64,000 bases of DNA, taken from the IMG/VR virus record IMGVR_UViG_2778261161_000002; one strand, written 5' to 3'. Positions 9,887 to 51,426 of the stretch are shown one piece after another. Position 1 is the first letter of the stretch. The number at the start of each line of letters is the position of its first letter. Source of the DNA: a virus (taxonomy: Duplodnaviria; Heunggongvirae; Uroviricota; Caudoviricetes). The translations under genes and the position numbers were made by a program. The notes under the pieces are model-generated. The model was not told the DNA's origin. It saw only the letters and a list, made by a program, of their open reading frames with translations, and did no database searches.

Positions 9887-9916
9887 TGTTAGAAAATTAA
9901 TTTGCTGTTTCTAAAT
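9887..9916. promoter_or_regulatory. paired TGTTAGAAAA / TTTCTAAAT motif (operator-like site B)
   Basis: motif family member ahead of the c4/icd/ant module. Confidence 0.4.
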
Positions 9917-10094
9917 CGGAATGTATGATCTGCATCATCGACTGAAGTCATCCATTGCTGAAATTTTTAGTTGATCTTCCATGTTTTCAGGCTTATATTC
10001 ATGCCGTCGTAGCAAATTCTGCGACCAGGTTTGACAGCCTGAATGTTAGTGCGGACAACCGCAGATTTCCGATATTGCGGTATTTTTGTGTCCG

Positions 10095-10215
10095 TAAACC
10101 GCGTTACGCCCGAATTATGGTGGGGCGTGATGGGGAGGCTTCGGCCTGCTGGTCTCACTAACGCCAGTCTGTCAACCCTGTCACGTCCTGCCACCTGTTT
10201 GACAGCGGGTAGCAG
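10095..10215 (+). ncRNA. c4-like antisense RNA region of an immI-type module
   Basis: GGTCTCACTAACGCC (10151-10165) is complementary to the direct repeats CCTGAATGTTAGTGCGG (10037-) and CCTGTTAGTGAGGCC (10224-); the latter overlaps the icd RBS; exact RNA ends unknown. Confidence 0.4.
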
Positions 10216-10245
10216 GTTGTTAAACCTGTTAGTGAGGCCGTAACT

Positions 10246-10470
10246 ATGGTTAATGCCAATCCTTGCTCACGTCCAGAATTCATCTGGCGTTTCCACTCCC
10301 TGCAAAAACACTGCGATCACTTCGCAATTGCCGCAACCGAAAAAGAAGCCCGTTCTCTGATCCCTGATCAGCATGGTGTTCTTACTGGTCGTTTCTCTAC
10401 TTCCCCACAACCAAACACTAATCCCTGGTATCGCAATATTACCAATCCCGGCATTGCGGAGGCACACTGA
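10246..10470 (+). CDS. icd: Icd-like small protein
   Basis: 74 aa ORF overlapping (ATGA) the antirepressor start; paralogue at 50240..50455. Confidence 0.45.
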   Translation: MVNANPCSRPEFIWRFHSLQKHCDHFAIAATEKEARSLIPDQHGVLTGRFSTSPQPNTNPWYRNITNPGIAEAH

Positions 10471-11177
10471 TGGATATCTGCATTCTTGAAAAGCCATCAA
10501 TGACCAGCATTGAGATCGCGGAGCTGGTGGGAAAACGTCATGACAATGTGAAGCGTACCATTGAAACATTAGCCGAATCCGGCGTTATTGTTCGTCCTCA
10601 AATTGAGGATGAACCAAAAATAGATGTAATGGGGCGTTCTCGATTAATTCAGGTGTTCCGATTTAGCGACGAGCAAGGCAAACGAGACAGTATCATTGTA
10701 GTCGCACAGCTTTGTCCTGAGTTTACTGCCCGGCTGGTGGACCGCTGGCGCGAACTGGAAGAACAAGTACGCCAGCCGTTGACCGAAATAGAGATGATCG
10801 CCGCAATGGCTGCAAATGCAGTTCAGCAGCAAAAGCGGCTTCATGCTGTTGAGTCAAAGGTTAGCCAGGTCGCTGAAACCGTCGAGCAAATCAAGAAGGG
10901 CAATATGCCAGATGGTTACATTGGCTACCGCCAGCTGGCGGCGAAATGCGGCCTGACTGAAGCCAAATGTCGCAACCTTGTCAACGCTTACCGGATTCCC
11001 ACCGATACACATGAGTTTTTAACTCCAGAGGGGGTATTGTCGCGTCGTTCCATCGTGGCCTTATCTCCCTTCATGAATGCTTTTAACCGGATGATGTCGG
11101 AGGCTGAACACCGAGGAAAACGCTGGTATCACCCCAAAATGGGGCAATTCCAGGTGATCGGTTGGGGAGGTGAGTGA
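10470..11177 (+). CDS. ant: Rha-family antirepressor-like regulator
   Basis: 235 aa; N-terminal SIEIAELVGKRHDNVKRTIETL matches the Rha domain signature as recalled; paralogue at 50455..51396. Confidence 0.55.
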   Translation: MDICILEKPSMTSIEIAELVGKRHDNVKRTIETLAESGVIVRPQIEDEPKIDVMGRSRLIQVFRFSDEQGKRDSIIVVAQLCPEFTARLVDRWRELEEQVRQPLTEIEMIAAMAANAVQQQKRLHAVESKVSQVAETVEQIKKGNMPDGYIGYRQLAAKCGLTEAKCRNLVNAYRIPTDTHEFLTPEGVLSRRSIVALSPFMNAFNRMMSEAEHRGKRWYHPKMGQFQVIGWGGE

Positions 11178-11382
11178 TGGACATCATGCAGGCGGTAAAA
11201 AAAATCAGGGAAGGACAGGCTGAAGTGTGCCGCCGTAAAGCATGGAGTGTTGGTGTATGGGCCTGGCCTGATAATTACTCTACTACCGGATGGTTTTGTA
11301 TTAATGGACTCCAGATCCGGGAAGTTGATTTATCGACGGCTGATATAGTCGGTAATGATTGGATCGTGACTTGAAGCGTGAT

Positions 11383-11407
11383 GCCCCGGCCTGGCCGGGG
11401 CTTTTTT
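11383..11407. terminator. bidirectional intrinsic terminator
   Basis: GCCCCGGCC-T-GGCCGGGGC followed by TTTTTT. Confidence 0.7.
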
Positions 11408-23312: not shown

Positions 23313-23389
23313 GATGGTGTAGCTCAGTAGGATAGAGCAGCAGCCTTCTAAGCTGTCGGTCGGTGGTTCGAATCCATCCACCATCGCCA
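23313..23389 (+). tRNA. tRNA-Arg (anticodon UCU)
   Basis: hand-folded cloverleaf: 7-bp acceptor GATGGTG/CACCATC, anticodon loop CTTCTAA, T-loop TTCGAAT, encoded CCA; resembles E. coli argU. Confidence 0.85.
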
Positions 23390-23391
23390 AT

Positions 23392-23464
23392 GCCGGTTTA
23401 GCTCAGTTGGTAGAGCGCCTGCCTTGTAAGCAGGATGTCAGCGGTTCGAGTCCGTTAACCGGCA
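23392..23464 (+). tRNA. tRNA-Thr (anticodon UGU)
   Basis: acceptor GCCGGTT/AACCGGC, anticodon loop CTTGTAA, T-loop TTCGAGT. Confidence 0.85.
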
Positions 23465-24629: not shown

Positions 24630-24705
24630 GGCCCTTTAGCTCAGTGGTTAGAGCAGGCGACTCATAATCGCACGGTCACCGGTTCAAATCCGGTAGGGGC
24701 CACCA
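24630..24705 (+). tRNA. tRNA-Ile2 (anticodon CAU, ileX-like)
   Basis: near-identical to E. coli ileX over the D and anticodon arms; encoded CCA. Confidence 0.8.
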
Positions 24706-48849: not shown

Positions 48850-49428
48850 ATGCAGAAACAGAGCTATTGGGAGAAACAGAGACAAAAAGCCATGCAAAAA
48901 TTGGCTGACCCAGCCTGGCGAGAGGAACAAAGGGCAAAGCGCCTTCAACAAGCTCAACGCCAGCAGCAGCGAGCGAGAGAAAAAGCCGCATCGCCTGAAT
49001 ATCGGCAAAAGAAAATTGAAAAAGCAAAGCAATATGAACAGCGGAGAAAAGATAAAGCTGTATCCGCTCCGCCCAAAAAAACACGCACGTCACGCGGCCT
49101 GAAGGGCAGATCACTCACAGCCGATGAACGCCGGATACAGACCGCTATCGGTACTCTCCCCTGCATTGCCTGCCATATTCACGGGCAACATAGCCCAGTG
49201 GTATCCCTGCACCATATCTTCGGGAGAACGGCAGAGAACGCACATAAATATGTCCTCCCTTTGTGTAAATGGCACCACCAGTACGCAGCGCCAGCCGAGG
49301 TCCGAGAACAATATCCCTGGCTGGTCCCTGTTCATGCTGATGGAAAAATAGGCGGAAAAGCAGATTTCATACGGCACAATGCCGATGAAATGGCGTTGTA
49401 TCAGATGGCGATTGAATTAATAAATTAG
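48850..49428 (+). CDS. ref: Ref-like HNH endonuclease (recombination enhancement function)
   Basis: 192 aa; basic N-terminus and C-terminal GLKGR...LPCIACHIHG...SLHHI...WHHQ.AAPAEVRE.YPWLVPVHADG matching P1 Ref as recalled. Confidence 0.8.
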   Translation: MQKQSYWEKQRQKAMQKLADPAWREEQRAKRLQQAQRQQQRAREKAASPEYRQKKIEKAKQYEQRRKDKAVSAPPKKTRTSRGLKGRSLTADERRIQTAIGTLPCIACHIHGQHSPVVSLHHIFGRTAENAHKYVLPLCKWHHQYAAPAEVREQYPWLVPVHADGKIGGKADFIRHNADEMALYQMAIELIN

Positions 49429-49446
49429 TTTTCTAACATTTTAAGT
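49427..49446. promoter_or_regulatory. TTTTCTAACATTTTAAG motif (operator-like site M)
   Basis: motif family member just after ref. Confidence 0.35.
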
Positions 49447-49759
49447 TGAATTGTAAATTTCTCCGATGTACATTCACTACCGATTGGCACACCGGTCAAC
49501 TTTTTGAGACAAACTGTTTAGTTTTTCGTATTATTGCCCCCGCCATACCTATGGCGGTGCAATATAGGTGGCTGAAAAGCCCCCGTTGACTCACGGTGTT
49601 CCAGCCTTTATTGCGCCGCCACCAGACCGTGGAACAGTCGATGGCGGCTCCGAAAGCAAGGAGTCACTACACTATGAACAACTACAGTCTTTTCCCATCA
49701 CTCGTCGTCCACCACTCACGCGATAATCTGCATTCTTTATTCGCGCTGGGGGAGTCAAA

Positions 49760-49927
49760 ATGACTGTTCGCTACCTCAACTTTCAAATCAAGAACATTAC
49801 TGGCGGTTGCTATGACTGGTTTGTCACTCTCGGAAAAGAAGTGATTACCGGGAAGCTGGATGAAGTGAAAGCTAAAGCAATGGCCTACGCCTGCAAGCAA
49901 GCCCGGAAGAAATCCGCCAAAGCATAA
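49760..49927 (+). CDS. 55-aa basic small protein
   Basis: GGGGGAG RBS then ATG; below ORF-track size cut-off. Confidence 0.3.
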   Translation: MTVRYLNFQIKNITGGCYDWFVTLGKEVITGKLDEVKAKAMAYACKQARKKSAKA

Positions 49928-50094
49928 AATACTGACTGTTGCGCCCTGGCATTATCGTGGGGTATATTTCTACGGCACCTTAGAAAAACGGGTGCCGGGA
50001 TTGGAACCCCGGATAATGCAAAAGGCGACACAGACGCCGAAAGCGTCTTTTCTTGTGTCATGCCATCGCACAGCCATACGTAGCGTTTAGCTCA

Positions 50095-50215
50095 GAGATC
50101 AATGGTAGTGCTGGCTGGGCTGCCGAAAGGCAGGCCGGTTCCCTTTTGCGCCGGTAGTTCCAACCCAGTCAGTGCTACCGCCATTGAGATTGGAACCTCA
50201 CGCGGTAGCTCCTTA
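50095..50215 (+). ncRNA. second c4-like antisense RNA region (distinct specificity)
   Basis: GGTAGTTCCAACC (50152-) complementary to repeated GATTGGAACC elements at 50000 and 50189; same layout as 10030-10240 with different sequence. Confidence 0.35.
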
Positions 50216-50239
50216 AATTAGCAAAAGGAGGCTGCCAAT

Positions 50240-50455
50240 ATGGCTACTATCCCTACCCCAACTCATTCTGAATTTATCTGGCGTTTCTATTCCTGCCAAA
50301 AACACCTGTATATCTGCGTCATGGCTGCAACCGAAGCAGAAGCTCGTTCATACCTTCCTGAAGAACCCTGCATTTTTGCCGCACGCTTCACTCTTGATGC
50401 GATGGAGATCCTCAATTACTGGAATCTGCCAATGAACTGCGTGGAGGTGCACTGA
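50240..50455 (+). CDS. icd: Icd-like small protein (copy 2)
   Basis: 71 aa; paralogue of 10246..10470. Confidence 0.45.
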   Translation: MATIPTPTHSEFIWRFYSCQKHLYICVMAATEAEARSYLPEEPCIFAARFTLDAMEILNYWNLPMNCVEVH

Positions 50456-51396
50456 TGAATCTGTCCATCTCTCAAAAAGCGACAATGACCAGCATTGAGA
50501 TCGCGGAACTGGTAGGAAGTCGCCAAGATAGTGTGAAGAGAACTATCGAAACACTGGCTAAAAAGAGTGTGATCCAATTTCCACAATCTGTGGAAATTGA
50601 AAATAAACAATCAGTTGGCCCTCGTCGATTTTCCAAGGCTTACATCTTTGAAGGCGAACAAGGCAAGCGCGATAGTATCATTGTCGTCGCACAGCTCTCT
50701 CCGGAATTCACCGCCCGGCTGGTGGACCGCTGGCGCGAACTGGAGAATGCCAGGGGACCGTTAAAATCAAAAGCCGAAATCCTGGCTGAAATGGCGCAAA
50801 TGCATCTTGAGCATGAACGCCGGATCAACGCCGTAAATGCCCAGGTAGCCGAGGTATCAGCACAAGTATCGATGGTCGCTGAAACACTCGAGCAAATAAA
50901 GAAAGGCAATATGCCGGAAGGCTACATTGGCTACCGCCAGCTGGCGGCGAAATGCGGCCTGACTGAAGCCAAATGTCGCAACCTGGTTAACGCTTACCGG
51001 ATACCCACTGATACGCATGAGTTTTTGACTCCCGACGGTTTGCTTGCGCGACGCTCAATTGTGGCCCTGGCCCCCTTCCGGAAAGCCTTTAAGCAGGTTA
51101 TGTCGGAGGCAGAACCACGCAACAAACGCTGGTATCATCCAAAGATGGGGATGTTTCAGGCAATCCACCATCCTGTGCCTGAAAGTCCAAAGGCAAACCT
51201 GTCGTTGCATACCGCCAGAGAGAGGATTAAAACAGGGTATGCAATCGTATGCCGTCGAGCATCTTGGCCTGAAGGTGTATGGGTATGGCCCGAAGGTGGA
51301 TCACGAAAGCACTGGCGCACTATCCGGGATGGGAAAATCCATGCGATTGATTTAGCTCCAGAGGATGTTGTTGCTACGGACTGGATTGTTAGTTAA
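50455..51396 (+). CDS. ant: Rha-family antirepressor-like regulator (copy 2)
   Basis: 313 aa; N-terminal and central regions nearly identical to 10470..11177, different C-terminus. Confidence 0.55.
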   Translation: MNLSISQKATMTSIEIAELVGSRQDSVKRTIETLAKKSVIQFPQSVEIENKQSVGPRRFSKAYIFEGEQGKRDSIIVVAQLSPEFTARLVDRWRELENARGPLKSKAEILAEMAQMHLEHERRINAVNAQVAEVSAQVSMVAETLEQIKKGNMPEGYIGYRQLAAKCGLTEAKCRNLVNAYRIPTDTHEFLTPDGLLARRSIVALAPFRKAFKQVMSEAEPRNKRWYHPKMGMFQAIHHPVPESPKANLSLHTARERIKTGYAIVCRRASWPEGVWVWPEGGSRKHWRTIRDGKIHAIDLAPEDVVATDWIVS

Positions 51397-51404
51397 TTAC
51401 TGTT

Positions 51405-51426
51405 GCCCCGGCCTGTCCGGGGCTTT
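51405..51426 (+). terminator. intrinsic terminator-like hairpin
   Basis: GCCCCGG-CCTGT-CCGGGGC then TTT; same design as 11383-11407. Confidence 0.5.

What the first reader, a model, noticed from the sequence alone, without database searches (positions are those of the whole stretch)
49980..51426. Second immI-type module with different antisense specificity
A second icd-like/Rha-antirepressor pair is nearly identical in the protein N-terminal regions to copy 1, but its upstream complementary elements are unrelated in sequence (GATTGGAACC targets vs GGTAGTTCCAACC). Both copies end in the same style of GCCCCGG hairpin terminator. Two antirepressor systems with orthogonal antisense control in one genome suggest hetero-immunity or anti-immunity against related prophages.
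Basis: partly seen in the sequence, partly recalled or inferred. Interest (0 to 1): 0.55.

Follow-up and report, generated by a model that had tools for sequence, protein, structure and literature searches.

The report
Second antisense-RNA-gated antirepressor operon
This D6-like phage-plasmid carries a second, intact copy of the small-RNA switch that phage P1 uses to keep its antirepressor silent; it has different RNA recognition sequences from the first copy, but the switch is a known kind and the second copy was already noted in related plasmids.

Summary
The window is a D6-like phage-plasmid: 93-97% identical to phage D6, and 100% identical over the 811 bases compared (49430-50240) to E. 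coli plasmid CP057047.1.

**Two complete modules.** Each reads promoter, a1/b1 leader, C4 antisense RNA, a2/b2, icd, Rha-type antirepressor, hairpin.
- Module 1 (9887-11401) has a 7-nt a site and a 7-nt b core (GTTAGTG) identical to P1's.
- Module 2 (49939-51423) is the IsrK/C4 type studied in Salmonella Gifsy-1. Its sites are a = TTGGAAC and b = GCAAAAGG, and b2 lies on the icd2 ribosome-binding site.

**Function is supported.**
- Predicted cognate RNA duplexes are much more stable than cross duplexes.
- Across 112 related loci, the four sites co-vary with the antisense loops.
- Near-identical relatives (D6, RCS47, pEC361_3) change a1, a' and a2, or b1, b' and b2, together.
- Both ORFs are intact and under purifying selection, so module 2 is not a relic.

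- The proteins are 67% (Ant) and 45% (Icd) identical, not nearly identical.
- Both quoted strings come from copy 2.
- A third C4-like RNA lies at 49547-49626.
- The C-terminus of Ant2 has a Tad2-like fold.

The hetero-immunity role is plausible by analogy with P1/P7 but untested. The second c4/icd region was already reported in D6-like plasmids, so novelty is modest.

The parts
49939..49968 (+). Putative module 2 promoter: -35 TTGCGC, 18-nt spacer, -10 TATATT; start site near 49975
   Evidence: Read from the sequence. The hexamers and spacing are kept in RCS47 although the spacer sequence differs. The Rfam isrK match starts at 49975. It fails the strict consensus scan because only 3 of 6 bases match in the -35. 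Inferred.
49975..50053 (+). IsrK-like leader RNA carrying the a1 and b1 decoy sites and its own intrinsic terminator
   Evidence: Rfam RF01394 isrK, 59.4 bits against a gathering score of 50, full length. A terminator-like stem at 50032-50048 followed by TTTCTTGTGT was found by scan.
50001..50007 (+). a1 site TTGGAAC, in the loop of hairpin CCGGG/CCCGG
   Evidence: Complementary to a' at 50157-50163.
50018..50025 (+). b1 site GCAAAAGG
   Evidence: Complementary to b' at 50142-50149.
50098..50185 (+). C4 antisense RNA of module 2 (mature form by analogy with P1: 50104-50179, 76 nt)
   Evidence: Rfam RF01695, 76.7 bits against a gathering score of 45. Canonical fold at -46.4 kcal/mol, z = -5.46, 0 of 200 shuffles as stable.
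50142..50149 (+). b' recognition loop CCTTTTGC (loop of C4 hairpin 2)
50157..50163 (+). a' recognition element GTTCCAA (single-stranded junction of C4)
50190..50196 (+). a2 target TTGGAAC in the icd2 leader
50221..50231 (+). b2 target GCAAAAGG overlapping the icd2 Shine-Dalgarno sequence AAGGAGG (50225-50231)
   Evidence: In the leader folded alone, the Shine-Dalgarno sequence also lies inside a local hairpin.
50240..50455 (+). icd2, a 71-aa Icd-like cell-division inhibitor
   Evidence: NCBIfam phage_ICD_like, 49.4 bits against a cut-off of 25. 63% identical to P1 Icd. pN/pS 0.06 against D6.
50455..51396 (+). ant2, 313 aa: Rha-type antirepressor core (aa 1-237) fused to a Tad2-like domain (aa 249-313, 51199-51393). 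Its start overlaps the icd2 stop (TGATG).
   Evidence: PHROG 63 'anti-repressor Ant', E = 2.8e-60. Pfam Phage_pRha, 28.1 bits, just under the 29.9 cut-off. 67% identical to Ant1. The C-terminus is 40% identical to orf66 of module 1. pN/pS 0.36 against D6.
51405..51423 (+). GC-rich end hairpin GCCCCGGCCTGTCCGGGGC with a weak TTT tail
   Evidence: Not called by the terminator scan.
9887..9900 (+). Module 1: candidate D6-type C1 operator TGTTAGAAAATTAA, abutting a possible upstream promoter (TTTGCT-17-TATGAT, 9901-9929)
   Evidence: The motif occurs 17 times in the window against 1.1 expected. Sites lie upstream of c1, lpa, ref and repL. Promoter positions. Inferred.
9971..9999 (+). Module 1 promoter TTGATC-17-TATATT, which aligns with P1 promoter P1c4 (P51b)
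9993..10045 (+). Module 1 a1b1 leader (a1 TTGACAG 10031-10037, b1 GTTAGTG 10045-10051), followed by a hairpin at 10059-10080 and a T run
   Evidence: Rfam RF03163 c4-a1b1, 54.4 bits against 46.7. Positions.
10113..10198 (+). Module 1 C4 RNA (mature 10119-10195, 77 nt); b' CTCACTAAC 10154-10162, a' CTGTCAA 10169-10175
   Evidence: Rfam, 66.3 bits. One base different from P1 c4. Fold z = -4.52.
10199..10236 (+). Module 1 a2 (TTGACAG, 10199-10205) and b2 (GTTAGTGAG, 10228-10236) ahead of icd1
   Evidence: Identical to the P1 a2 and b2 sites.
10246..11177 (+). icd1 (10246-10470, 74 aa) and ant1 (10470-11177, 235 aa, Rha-type), joined by a TGATG overlap
   Evidence: (Phage_pRha, 37.2 bits against 29.9).
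11177..11374 (+). orf66, a 65-aa Tad2-like protein joined to ant1 by a TGATG overlap; homologue of the Ant2 C-terminal domain
   Evidence: AlphaFold model with pLDDT 93. The top 16 PDB matches are all Tad2 structures, with TM 0.73-0.77. Pfam Tad2-like is only 15.2 bits against a cut-off of 25.
11383..11401 (+). Module 1 intrinsic terminator GCCCCGGCCTGGCCGGGGC followed by TTTTTT
49547..49626 (+). Third C4-like RNA (b' TGACTC 49587-49592, a' TGTTCCA 49597-49603), preceded by promoter-like GAGACA-17-TATTAT (49506-49534) and an operator-like motif at 49425-49438 (minus strand)
   Evidence: Rfam C4, 40.2 bits, below the gathering score of 45; E = 1.1e-5 for the region. Canonical fold, z = -4.63. 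Conserved in D6-like plasmids and in a divergent S. dysenteriae plasmid. Motif.
49630..49927 (+). Targets and cargo of the third C4-like RNA: a2 TGGAACA (49630-49636); b2 GAGTCA on a Shine-Dalgarno sequence (49661-49666); a 29-aa remnant of an icd-like ORF (49674-49763); an ATGA-coupled 55-aa ORF (49760-49927, D6 orf85)
   Evidence: The icd-like ORF is full length in locus L126. The 55-aa ORF matches PHROG 7786, function unknown.

Best explanation
**What it is.** Module 2 (49939-51423) is a complete, working copy of the C4/IsrK-type antisense switch that gates an antirepressor operon.

**Proposed mechanism**
1. A promoter near 49939-49968 starts transcription at about 49975.
2. Many transcripts stop at the terminator at 50032-50055. 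This yields a short IsrK-like RNA that carries a1 (TTGGAAC) and b1 (GCAAAAGG).
3. Read-through transcripts contain the C4 RNA (50104-50179). By analogy with P1, C4 is cut out of the transcript and accumulates.
4. The two exposed elements of C4, b' (CCUUUUGC) and a' (GUUCCAA), pair with b2 on the icd2 ribosome-binding site and with a2 31 nt upstream. This blocks icd2 translation.
5. Because the ant2 start overlaps the icd2 stop (TGATG), ant2 translation is blocked too.
6. The short a1b1 RNA can compete for C4 and turn the operon on, as shown for IsrK in Gifsy-1.

**Specificity.** The recognition sequences differ from those of module 1 at 3 of 7 a positions and 6 of 8 b positions. Module 1's a site and 7-nt b core are identical to P1's. 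The two switches should therefore not cross-regulate.

**Consequence.** In an established carrier cell both antirepressors stay silent. On entry into a cell that lacks the cognate C4, they are made. This gives the plasmid a second immunity specificity of the P1/P7 kind.

**Shown here:** the sequence anatomy, the folds, family membership, covariation and intact ORFs.
**Inferred:** processing of C4, repression, the decoy effect, and the target of Ant2.
For: **Family scores.** Both RNAs score above Rfam's curated thresholds: C4 76.7 against 45, isrK 59.4 against 50.

**Fold.** The C4 fold is canonical, with z = -5.46.

**Target positions**
- b2 overlaps the Shine-Dalgarno sequence, and a2 lies 11 nt after the 3' end of C4.
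- The terminator after b1 was found by scan.
- In 64 kb, paired a/b sites exist only at the module's own a1b1 and a2b2.

**Duplex energies**

| C4 RNA | Targets | Energy (kcal/mol) |
|---|---|---|
| module 2 | module 2 sites | -14.0, -9.7, -14.7, -15.0 |
| module 2 | module 1 sites | -4.7, -3.3, -7.6, -4.0 |
| module 1 | module 2 sites | -6.0, -2.3, -6.3, -10.0 |

**Covariation across 112 unique loci.** Share of loci with at least 7 nt of complementarity:

| Site | Cognate | Non-cognate |
|---|---|---|
| a2 | 96% | 7% |
| b2 | 90% | 7% |
| a1 | 88% | 8% |
| b1 | 78% | 11% |

**Coordinated switches in close relatives**

| Element | a | b |
|---|---|---|
| window | TTGGAAC | GCAAAAGG |
| D6 | TTGAGAC | GCAAAAGG |
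| RCS47 | TTGAGAC | GTCAAAGG |
| pEC361_3 | TTGGTCT | GTCAAAGG |

In each case all three copies of the element change together. Module 1 does the same between the window, D6, P1 and P7.

**Link to the experimental system.** Gifsy-1 has isrK directly followed by a C4 match of 69 bits, then anrP. There, trans IsrK raises anrP translation more than 100-fold (PMC4825925).

**Coding capacity**
- icd2 passes NCBIfam phage_ICD_like.
- pN/pS is 0.06 for icd2 and 0.36 for ant2 against D6.
Against: - There is no expression or genetic data for this element.
- The proposed promoter fails the strict consensus scan, and no C1-operator-like motif lies next to it. The nearest is about 500 nt upstream, at 49425-49438.
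- The end hairpin has a weak U tract.
- Ant2 is unrelated to P1 Ant1 and to Gifsy-1 AnrP, so its target cannot be carried over from either system.
- Ant2 falls just under Pfam's Rha cut-off, 28.1 against 29.9.
- The a' of the third C4-like RNA shares a 6-nt core (GUUCCA) with the a' of module 2, so some cross-talk at the a site is possible.
- Gifsy-1's authors explain IsrK action through alternative mRNA structures around an ORF that overlaps the C4 region. They do not invoke a processed antisense RNA, so the two precedents are not fully reconciled.
Confidence: 0.8

Rival explanations
1. Module 2 is regulated as described, but its cargo does not act on the plasmid's own C1 immunity. On this view it is an accessory cassette for conflict with other prophages or with host defence. 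Ant2 would inactivate repressors of unrelated resident prophages. Its fused Tad2-like domain (and orf66 in module 1) would soak up Thoeris signalling nucleotides. The C4 gate would limit expression to the moment of entry into a new cell.
For: - The cassette is variably present: D6-like plasmid CP057763 lacks it.
- It sits at a different locus in P1-like plasmids, between pacB and c1 in RCS47, where its cargo gene is unrelated.
- The same leader type is widespread in lambdoid Stx phages and in Gifsy-1.
- The orf66 model has a Tad2 fold: pLDDT 93, and all top 16 PDB matches are Tad2 with TM about 0.75.
- No C1-operator-like motif lies next to the module 2 promoter.
Against: - Ant2 is 67% identical to Ant1, which occupies the classical immI position beside repL. 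A shared target is the simplest expectation.
- The Tad2-like domain scores below Pfam's threshold, 15.2 and 11.9 against 25, and ligand-binding residues were not examined.
- PHROG 63 already covers the full fused architecture, so the fusion may simply be a common antirepressor form.
Confidence: 0.3
2. The two modules are not orthogonal. Partial complementarity is enough for each C4 to damp the other's operon, so module 2 is redundant back-up dosage and not a second specificity.
For: - The a sites share 4 of 7 bases (TTGACAG against TTGGAAC).
- The best cross duplex, module 1 b' on module 2 b2, reaches -10.0 kcal/mol.
- The Ant proteins are paralogues with a recently homogenised stretch of about 120 nt.
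Against: - Cross energies are far weaker than cognate ones, and the gap is wider than the P1/P7 gap. P1 and P7 are reported as heteroimmune through small immI differences (PMC6906374).
- The b elements share almost nothing.
- Across the family, non-cognate pairs reach 7 nt of complementarity in only 7-11% of cases, against 78-96% for cognate pairs. Selection acts on exact matching.
- Close relatives keep all three copies of an element in step.
Confidence: 0.1
3. Module 2 is a decaying duplicate or remnant with no current function.
For: - The end hairpin has a weak U tract.
- The neighbouring third cassette has a truncated icd-like ORF, so decay does occur at this locus.
Against: - Both ORFs are full length and the same length as in D6, with pN/pS below 1.
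- The RNAs score above curated thresholds.
- Compensatory three-way changes are kept between relatives that are 96% identical.
- The region is found in about 96 plasmids.
Confidence: 0.04

Closest known systems
immI operon of phages P1 and P7 (c4 antisense RNA, icd, ant1/ant2)
   Same: - The order of parts is the same: a1b1, C4, a2b2, icd, antirepressor.
- C4 has the same fold and sits in the same transcript as its targets.
- b2 lies on the icd ribosome-binding site.
- icd and ant are translationally coupled.
- Icd2 is 63% identical to P1 Icd.
- Specificity is set by two short elements that change together with their targets, as between P1 and P7.
   Different: - The recognition sequences are different (TTGGAAC and GCAAAAGG).
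- The leader is of the isrK type, with a clear intrinsic terminator.
- The antirepressor is Rha-type with a Tad2-like C-terminus and is not homologous to P1 Ant1/Ant2.
- No C1 operator lies next to the promoter.
- The location is between ref and a pmgF-like gene, not beside repL.
isrK-STnc1160-orf45-anrP-isrJ locus of Salmonella prophage Gifsy-1 (PMC4825925)
   Same: - The same pair of Rfam elements lie next to each other, isrK then C4.
- a1/b1 on the short terminated RNA equal a2/b2 ahead of the cargo gene.
- The cargo is an antirepressor-like gene.
- Experiments show that the short RNA activates translation of the long one in trans.
   Different: - In Gifsy-1 no separate icd-like ORF is annotated or visible between C4 and the cargo gene: the b2/Shine-Dalgarno site lies directly ahead of the annotated anrP start.
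- AnrP is unrelated to Ant2.
- The published model invokes an ORF that overlaps the C4 region and alternative mRNA structures, not a processed antisense RNA.
- The recognition sequences differ (TTGGCGT and TCACCG).
Second c4/icd region already noted in D6-like plasmid pYU39_89 (PMC6799933), and the annotated orf83/orf82 pair of phage D6 (MF356679)
   Same: It is the same locus with the same gene content. D6 annotates 'inhibition of cell division' and 'putative anti-repressor' there. The paper calls the second antisense-RNA/icd region noteworthy.
   Different: - In what I could read of PMC6799933 (the passages matching my search terms), the only mention of the second region was that one sentence, with no analysis of specificity. 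The D6 genome paper itself was not available.
- This window differs from D6 in the a specificity of module 2 (TTGGAAC against TTGAGAC) and in the b specificity of module 1 (GTTAGTG against ACTTACG).
Tad2 (Thoeris anti-defence 2, DUF2829/PF11195)
   Same: The predicted fold of orf66 matches the solved SPO1 and Myroides phage Tad2 structures, with TM 0.73-0.77. The Ant2 C-terminal domain is related to orf66 by homology. A profile of the family retrieves a bona fide PF11195 member.
   Different: - The sequence score is below Pfam's threshold.
- In module 2 the domain is fused to an antirepressor.
- Nucleotide binding is untested.

Membership tests
C4 antisense RNA (Rfam RF01695) | Covariance-model score at or above the curated gathering score | tested here: met
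   76.7 bits against 45, full-length match at 50098-50185.
C4 antisense RNA (Rfam RF01695) | Long closing stem enclosing two hairpins, with an exposed loop (b') and an exposed junction (a') | tested here: met
   The minimum-free-energy and centroid folds are identical and canonical, at -46.4 kcal/mol, z = -5.46.
C4 antisense RNA (Rfam RF01695) | a' and b' complementary to a2 and b2 just downstream, with b2 on the ribosome-binding site of the next ORF | tested here: met
   7-nt and 8-nt matches at 50190-50196 and 50221-50228; Shine-Dalgarno sequence at 50225-50231. Family-wide covariation is 96% and 90% cognate against 7% non-cognate.
C4 antisense RNA (Rfam RF01695) | Released from the operon transcript by processing, then represses icd and ant translation in trans | not testable with these tools
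   Requires RNA analysis and reporter genetics.
isrK / c4-a1b1 leader (Rfam RF01394, RF03163) | Covariance-model score at or above the gathering score | tested here: met
   isrK scores 59.4 against 50 at 49975-50053. The c4-a1b1 model gives only 22.4 against 46.7 on the same region. In Gifsy-1 one region passes both models.
isrK / c4-a1b1 leader (Rfam RF01394, RF03163) | Carries copies of the a and b target sequences and ends in its own Rho-independent terminator | tested here: met
   a1 at 50001-50007 and b1 at 50018-50025 are identical to a2 and b2. Terminator at 50032-50048 with a T-rich tail.
isrK / c4-a1b1 leader (Rfam RF01394, RF03163) | The short RNA activates translation of the long transcript in trans; Hfq binding | not testable with these tools
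   Shown only for Gifsy-1 (PMC4825925).
P1-type immI operon | Icd homologue directly after the C4 targets | tested here: met
   63% identity to P1 Icd. NCBIfam phage_ICD_like, 49.4 bits against 25.
P1-type immI operon | Antirepressor homologous to P1 Ant1/Ant2 | tested here: not met
   BLASTP of Ant2 against P1 Ant1 gives a best E-value of 0.013 over 67 aa, which is not a credible match. Ant2 is Rha-type.
P1-type immI operon | Translational coupling of icd to the antirepressor gene | tested here: met
   TGATG stop/start overlap at 50453-50457, and the same at 10468-10472 in module 1. Coupling itself is inferred.
P1-type immI operon | C1 operator overlapping an operon promoter | tested here: inconclusive
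   The P1 operator consensus gives no match. A candidate D6-type operator motif (17 sites against 1.1 expected) lies at 9887-9900 for module 1. For module 2 the nearest site is about 500 nt upstream, at 49425-49438.
Rha-family phage regulatory / antirepressor proteins (PF09669; PHROG 63) | N-terminal Phage_pRha domain at or above the Pfam gathering score | tested here: inconclusive
   Ant2 scores 28.1 bits against 29.9 (E = 3.2e-6). Ant1 scores 37.2 bits and passes. Ant2 matches PHROG 63 'anti-repressor Ant' at E = 2.8e-60 over its whole length.
Tad2-like (PF11195) | Profile score at or above the Pfam gathering score | tested here: not met
   orf66 scores 15.2 bits and the Ant2 C-terminus 11.9 bits, against 25.
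Tad2-like (PF11195) | Tad2 fold | tested here: met
   orf66 model with pLDDT 93. The top 16 PDB matches are all Tad2, with probability 1.00 and TM 0.73-0.77; the next match has TM below 0.4. Foldseek E-values are only about 0.02 because the protein is short.
Tad2-like (PF11195) | Binds Thoeris signalling nucleotides | not testable with these tools
   Needs biochemistry.

The most novel reading that the evidence does not exclude
C4/IsrK switches may form a recombination-shuffled, two-element 'barcode' system shared by P1-like, D6-like and lambdoid phages. This plasmid would stack three such switches with different barcodes. Its antirepressors and Tad2-like anti-defence cargo would then be made only on entry into a cell that lacks every cognate C4. 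That would be a form of kin discrimination that also times anti-defence expression. The co-ordinated switches seen between 96%-identical plasmids, at both modules, would be the footprint of an ongoing arms race over immunity specificity.
Probability: 0.3. Interest if true: 0.6.

Novelty: new member of a known kind. Interest (0 to 1): 0.3.

Why it matters
If the two or three switches are truly orthogonal, a resident relative would need every matching C4 RNA to stay immune to this plasmid. This plasmid, in turn, would silence incoming phages of several immI types, including P1-type, because its module 1 a site and 7-nt b core are identical to P1's. That bears on which P1-like and D6-like phage-plasmids can coexist or displace each other, and many of them carry resistance genes.

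The analysis also links two literatures that do not cite each other's mechanism. IsrK of Gifsy-1 is the a1b1 element of a C4 switch, and STnc1160/orf45 overlaps the C4 RNA.

The practical gain for annotation is small but real. PGAP calls a protein ('ash family protein') across the C4 gene.

Tried and rejected
- **P1 C1-operator consensus.** A search with up to 3 mismatches found nothing. A different repeated motif was found instead.
- **Variable-gap pattern scan of viral contigs.** It returned no answer. The fixed-gap pattern worked.
- **Whole-molecule RNAduplex of C4 against the leaders.** It was uninformative because it ignores intramolecular structure. It was replaced by duplexes of the exposed elements only.
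- **The D6 genome paper.** It could not be read by DOI or by PMC id, so I cannot say what its authors wrote about the two modules.
- **Word-indexed homologue search for orf66.** It gave 3 hits. The exhaustive profile search gave 7.
- **PDB sequence search with Ant2.** It gave nothing meaningful.
- **Pfam search with the Icd proteins.** It gave no family; NCBIfam did.
- **Covariation test for the third C4-like RNA.** It was not possible, because its recognition elements are invariant in every copy found.
- **A second GAGTCA before orf85 (49752-49757).** It looked like an extra target, but the column varies among relatives (A/G/T), so I treat it as chance.
- **Module 2 as a recent internal duplicate of module 1.** Rejected. 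The leaders align at only about 45%, and Icd2 is closer to P1 Icd than to Icd1.
Full report
**Identity of the window.** The region of the finding is 96.6% identical to Escherichia phage D6 (MF356679). The first module is 93.6% identical to D6. Bases 49430-50240 are 100% identical to E. coli plasmid CP057047.1 (pRHB39-C21_3, 93 kb), and about 96 plasmids carry most of this stretch. The window is therefore a D6-like phage-plasmid, read in the opposite orientation to the D6 record.

**Check of the observation.** Rfam places two C4 antisense RNAs above the curated threshold of 45 bits: 10113-10198 (66.3 bits) and 50098-50185 (76.7 bits). Upstream of the first it finds a c4-a1b1 element (9993-10045). 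Upstream of the second it finds an isrK element (49975-50053, 59.4 bits against 50). Each C4 is followed by a small icd-like ORF and a Rha-type antirepressor ORF whose start overlaps the icd stop as TGATG. Both units end in the hairpin GCCCCGGCCTG(G/T)CCGGGGC. The second has only a TTT tail and is not called by the terminator scan.

- Ant1 and Ant2 are 67% identical, and the two Icd proteins are 45% identical over 51 residues. They are not nearly identical at the N-terminus.
- The only near-identical DNA (92-97%) is a stretch of about 120 nt in mid-ant, 10882-11000 against 50888-51010. It looks like recent gene conversion.
One is the target and the other is its antisense partner.

**Anatomy of module 2**.
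- A promoter-like pair, TTGCGC-18-TATATT (49939-49968), sits just before the start of the isrK match. RCS47 keeps the hexamers and the spacing although the spacer sequence differs.
- The leader RNA forms two hairpins. a1 (TTGGAAC, 50001-50007) lies in the second loop and b1 (GCAAAAGG, 50018-50025) lies after it. An intrinsic terminator follows at 50032-50048 with a T-rich tail.
- The C4 RNA (about 50104-50179) folds into the canonical shape at -46.4 kcal/mol, z = -5.46. It exposes b' (CCUUUUGC) in the loop of hairpin 2 and a' (GUUCCAA) in the junction.
- Downstream, a2 (50190-50196) sits in a hairpin loop. b2 (50221-50228) overlaps the icd2 Shine-Dalgarno sequence AAGGAGG (50225-50231).
- icd2 (50240-50455) passes NCBIfam phage_ICD_like and is 63% identical to P1 Icd.
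- ant2 (50455-51396) matches PHROG 63 'anti-repressor Ant' at E = 2.8e-60.

**Specificity.**

| Module | a site | b site | Note |
|---|---|---|---|
| Module 1 (window) | TTGACAG | GTTAGTG(AG) | a site and 7-nt b core identical to P1; c4 differs from P1 c4 by one base |
| Module 2 (window) | TTGGAAC | GCAAAAGG | differs from module 1 at 3 of 7 a positions and 6 of 8 b positions |

I computed duplex energies using the exposed elements only.

| C4 RNA | Targets | Energy (kcal/mol) |
|---|---|---|
| module 2 | module 2 a1, a2, b1, b2 | -14.0, -9.7, -14.7, -15.0 |
| module 2 | module 1 sites | -4.7, -3.3, -7.6, -4.0 |
| module 1 | module 2 sites | -6.0, -2.3, -6.3, -10.0 |

This separation is wider than the computed P1/P7 separation in the same table. 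Minor immI differences are reported to underlie P1/P7 heteroimmunity (PMC6906374). Within the 64-kb window, an a site followed within 60 nt by a b site occurs only at each module's own a1b1 and a2b2.

**Is the second antisense RNA functional?** Three lines of evidence say yes.

First, I scanned IMG/VR for the constant parts of hairpin 2 and the junction, leaving the recognition elements free. This returned 120 loci with 60 different combinations of b' and a'. In 112 unique contexts I measured the share with at least 7 nt of complementarity to each site.

| Site | Own (cognate) | From loci of other specificity |
|---|---|---|
| a2 | 96% | 7% |
| b2 | 90% | 7% |
| a1 | 88% | 8% |
| b1 | 78% | 11% |

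Second, close relatives change all three copies of an element together.

| Element | a | b |
|---|---|---|
| window | TTGGAAC | GCAAAAGG |
| D6 | TTGAGAC | GCAAAAGG |
| RCS47 | TTGAGAC | GTCAAAGG |
| pEC361_3 | TTGGTCT | GTCAAAGG |

All four combinations of the two commonest a types and b types occur among relatives, which suggests the two elements reassort. Module 1 behaves the same way. The window and P1 have b = GTTAGTG, D6 has ACTTACG and P7 has GATTGTG, each in b1, b' and b2. This plasmid therefore differs from the D6 reference in one element of each module.

Third, icd2 and ant2 are full length and the same length as in D6. Their pN/pS values are 0.06 and 0.36.

**Mechanism.** Two experimental precedents apply.
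- For P1 and P7, the record annotation states that C4 binds a2 and b2 in the icd-ant mRNA and represses icd and ant translation. It also states that the same transcript encodes both the RNA and its targets.
- For Gifsy-1, the isrK promoter drives a short terminated RNA and a read-through mRNA that is not translated. Supplying IsrK in trans raises anrP translation more than 100-fold. A stable RNA (STnc1160) is processed from the read-through transcript just downstream of IsrK (PMC4825925).

I confirmed that Gifsy-1 has an Rfam C4 match (69 bits) directly after isrK and before anrP. Its isrK region also passes the c4-a1b1 model. Its sites read a = TTGGCGT and b = TCACCG, with b2 on the anrP Shine-Dalgarno sequence. 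The paper's 'orf45' overlaps the C4 region.

The most economical reading is as follows.
- C4 represses by pairing with a2 and b2.
- The short a1b1 RNA competes for C4 and de-represses.
- Coupling passes the effect on to ant.

The processing, repression and decoy steps are inferred for this element.

**Origin.** Module 2 is not a recent copy of module 1.
- The leaders align at only about 45%.
- The module 1 leader is 93% identical to P1 immI.
- The module 2 leader is 85-92% identical to an extra cassette found in hundreds of P1-like plasmids, where it lies between pacB and c1 in RCS47 with an unrelated cargo gene. It is about 68-70% identical to leaders in Stx phages and phiP27.
- A D6-like plasmid without module 2 exists.
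- Several IMG/VR prophages carry two or three isrK-C4 units in tandem.

Stacking modules of different specificity is therefore common in this family.

**What is already known.** D6's annotation lists both icd/antirepressor pairs. [quoted passage not shown] I found no analysis of the specificities, but I could not read the D6 genome paper.

**Additional findings in and beside the finding's coordinates.**
- *A third C4-like RNA at 49547-49626.*
  - It scores 40.2 bits, just under the threshold, and folds canonically with z = -4.63.
  - Its a' (UGUUCCA) and b' (UGACUC) match TGGAACA (49630-49636) and GAGTCA on a Shine-Dalgarno sequence (49661-49666).
  - The ORF behind that site is a 29-aa remnant. 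In a Shigella dysenteriae plasmid the same ORF is a full icd-like gene. It is coupled by ATGA to a conserved 55-aa ORF.
  - Its recognition elements never vary in the copies found, so covariation could not be tested.
- *A Tad2-like domain.*
  - The last 65 residues of Ant2 are homologous to orf66, the separate ORF coupled to ant1.
  - A model of orf66 (pLDDT 93) matches only Tad2 structures at the top of a PDB search, with TM 0.73-0.77.
  - The Pfam score is below threshold.
  - A profile of the family retrieves a genuine PF11195 member.
- *A likely D6-type C1 operator.*
  - The motif TGTTAGAAAAYTAA occurs 17 times against 1.1 expected.
  - Sites lie upstream of c1, lpa, ref, repL, module 1 and the third C4-like RNA. 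These are the positions where P1 has C1 operators.
  - None lies next to the module 2 promoter.

**Verdict.** The finding is real, and it is a well-formed member of a known regulatory family. Predicted orthogonality to module 1 is well supported computationally. The proposed biological role follows from the P1/P7 precedent but is untested. Novelty is modest.

Noticed in passing
window 49547-49927: A third C4-like RNA (Rfam 40.2 bits, below the gathering score; canonical fold, z = -4.6) has its own a2 and b2 targets. It is followed by a 29-aa remnant of an icd-like ORF and a coupled, conserved 55-aa ORF of unknown function. The icd-like ORF is intact in a Shigella dysenteriae plasmid (L126).
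   Followed up: yes
window 11177-11374 and 51199-51393: orf66 after ant1 and the C-terminal 65 residues of Ant2 are homologous. The orf66 model has a Tad2 (Thoeris anti-defence 2) fold, although the Pfam score is below threshold. The domain is a separate coupled ORF in module 1 and is fused to the antirepressor in module 2.
   Followed up: yes
window, 17 sites including 8683, 9887, 26144, 30577, 30664, 48772, 49425: The motif TGTTAGAAAAYTAA occurs 17 times against 1.1 expected. It lies upstream of the homologues of c1, lpa, ref, repL and immI, which are genes that C1 controls in P1. It is probably the D6-type C1 operator. The P1 operator consensus itself is absent.
   Followed up: partly
window 50102-50221: Public annotation of the identical plasmid calls a 39-aa 'ash family protein' CDS across the C4 RNA gene. 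It corresponds in position to 'orf45' of the Gifsy-1 IsrK paper. It is either a mis-call of an RNA gene or a translated ORF that overlaps C4.
   Followed up: partly
window 10882-11000 and 50888-51010: A stretch of about 120 nt is 92-97% identical between ant1 and ant2, whereas the genes are otherwise about 72% identical. This suggests recent gene conversion between the two paralogues.
   Followed up: partly
window 10045-10051, 10154-10162, 10228-10236 against D6 (L128 20905-21295, minus strand): The b specificity of module 1 is P1-type here (GTTAGTG) but ACTTACG in the D6 reference, changed in b1, b' and b2 together. This plasmid and D6 therefore differ in one recognition element of each module.
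   Followed up: yes
loci L029 (9709-11209), L016, L076, L113: Other prophages in IMG/VR carry two or three isrK-C4 units in tandem (656-nt period in L029, L076 and L016; about 866 nt in L113). In the three arrays checked (L029, L016, L076) each unit has a different recognition-element pair; in L029 the ORF listing shows a cargo ORF behind each unit.
   Followed up: partly
locus L127 (CP057763.1): This D6-like plasmid keeps ref, the third C4-like cassette and the downstream regulator but lacks module 2. Module 2 is therefore an accessory cassette.
   Followed up: partly
window 23313-23464 and 24630-24702: Three tRNA genes (Rfam 68-75 bits) lie in the region that corresponds to the D6 tRNA cluster.
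   Followed up: no
window 10059-10090: The module 1 a1b1 leader is also followed by a hairpin (CCGCA...TGCGG, 12-nt loop) and TATTTTTGTG, as in P1 and P7. A short terminated a1b1 RNA like IsrK may therefore also exist for classical immI.
   Followed up: no
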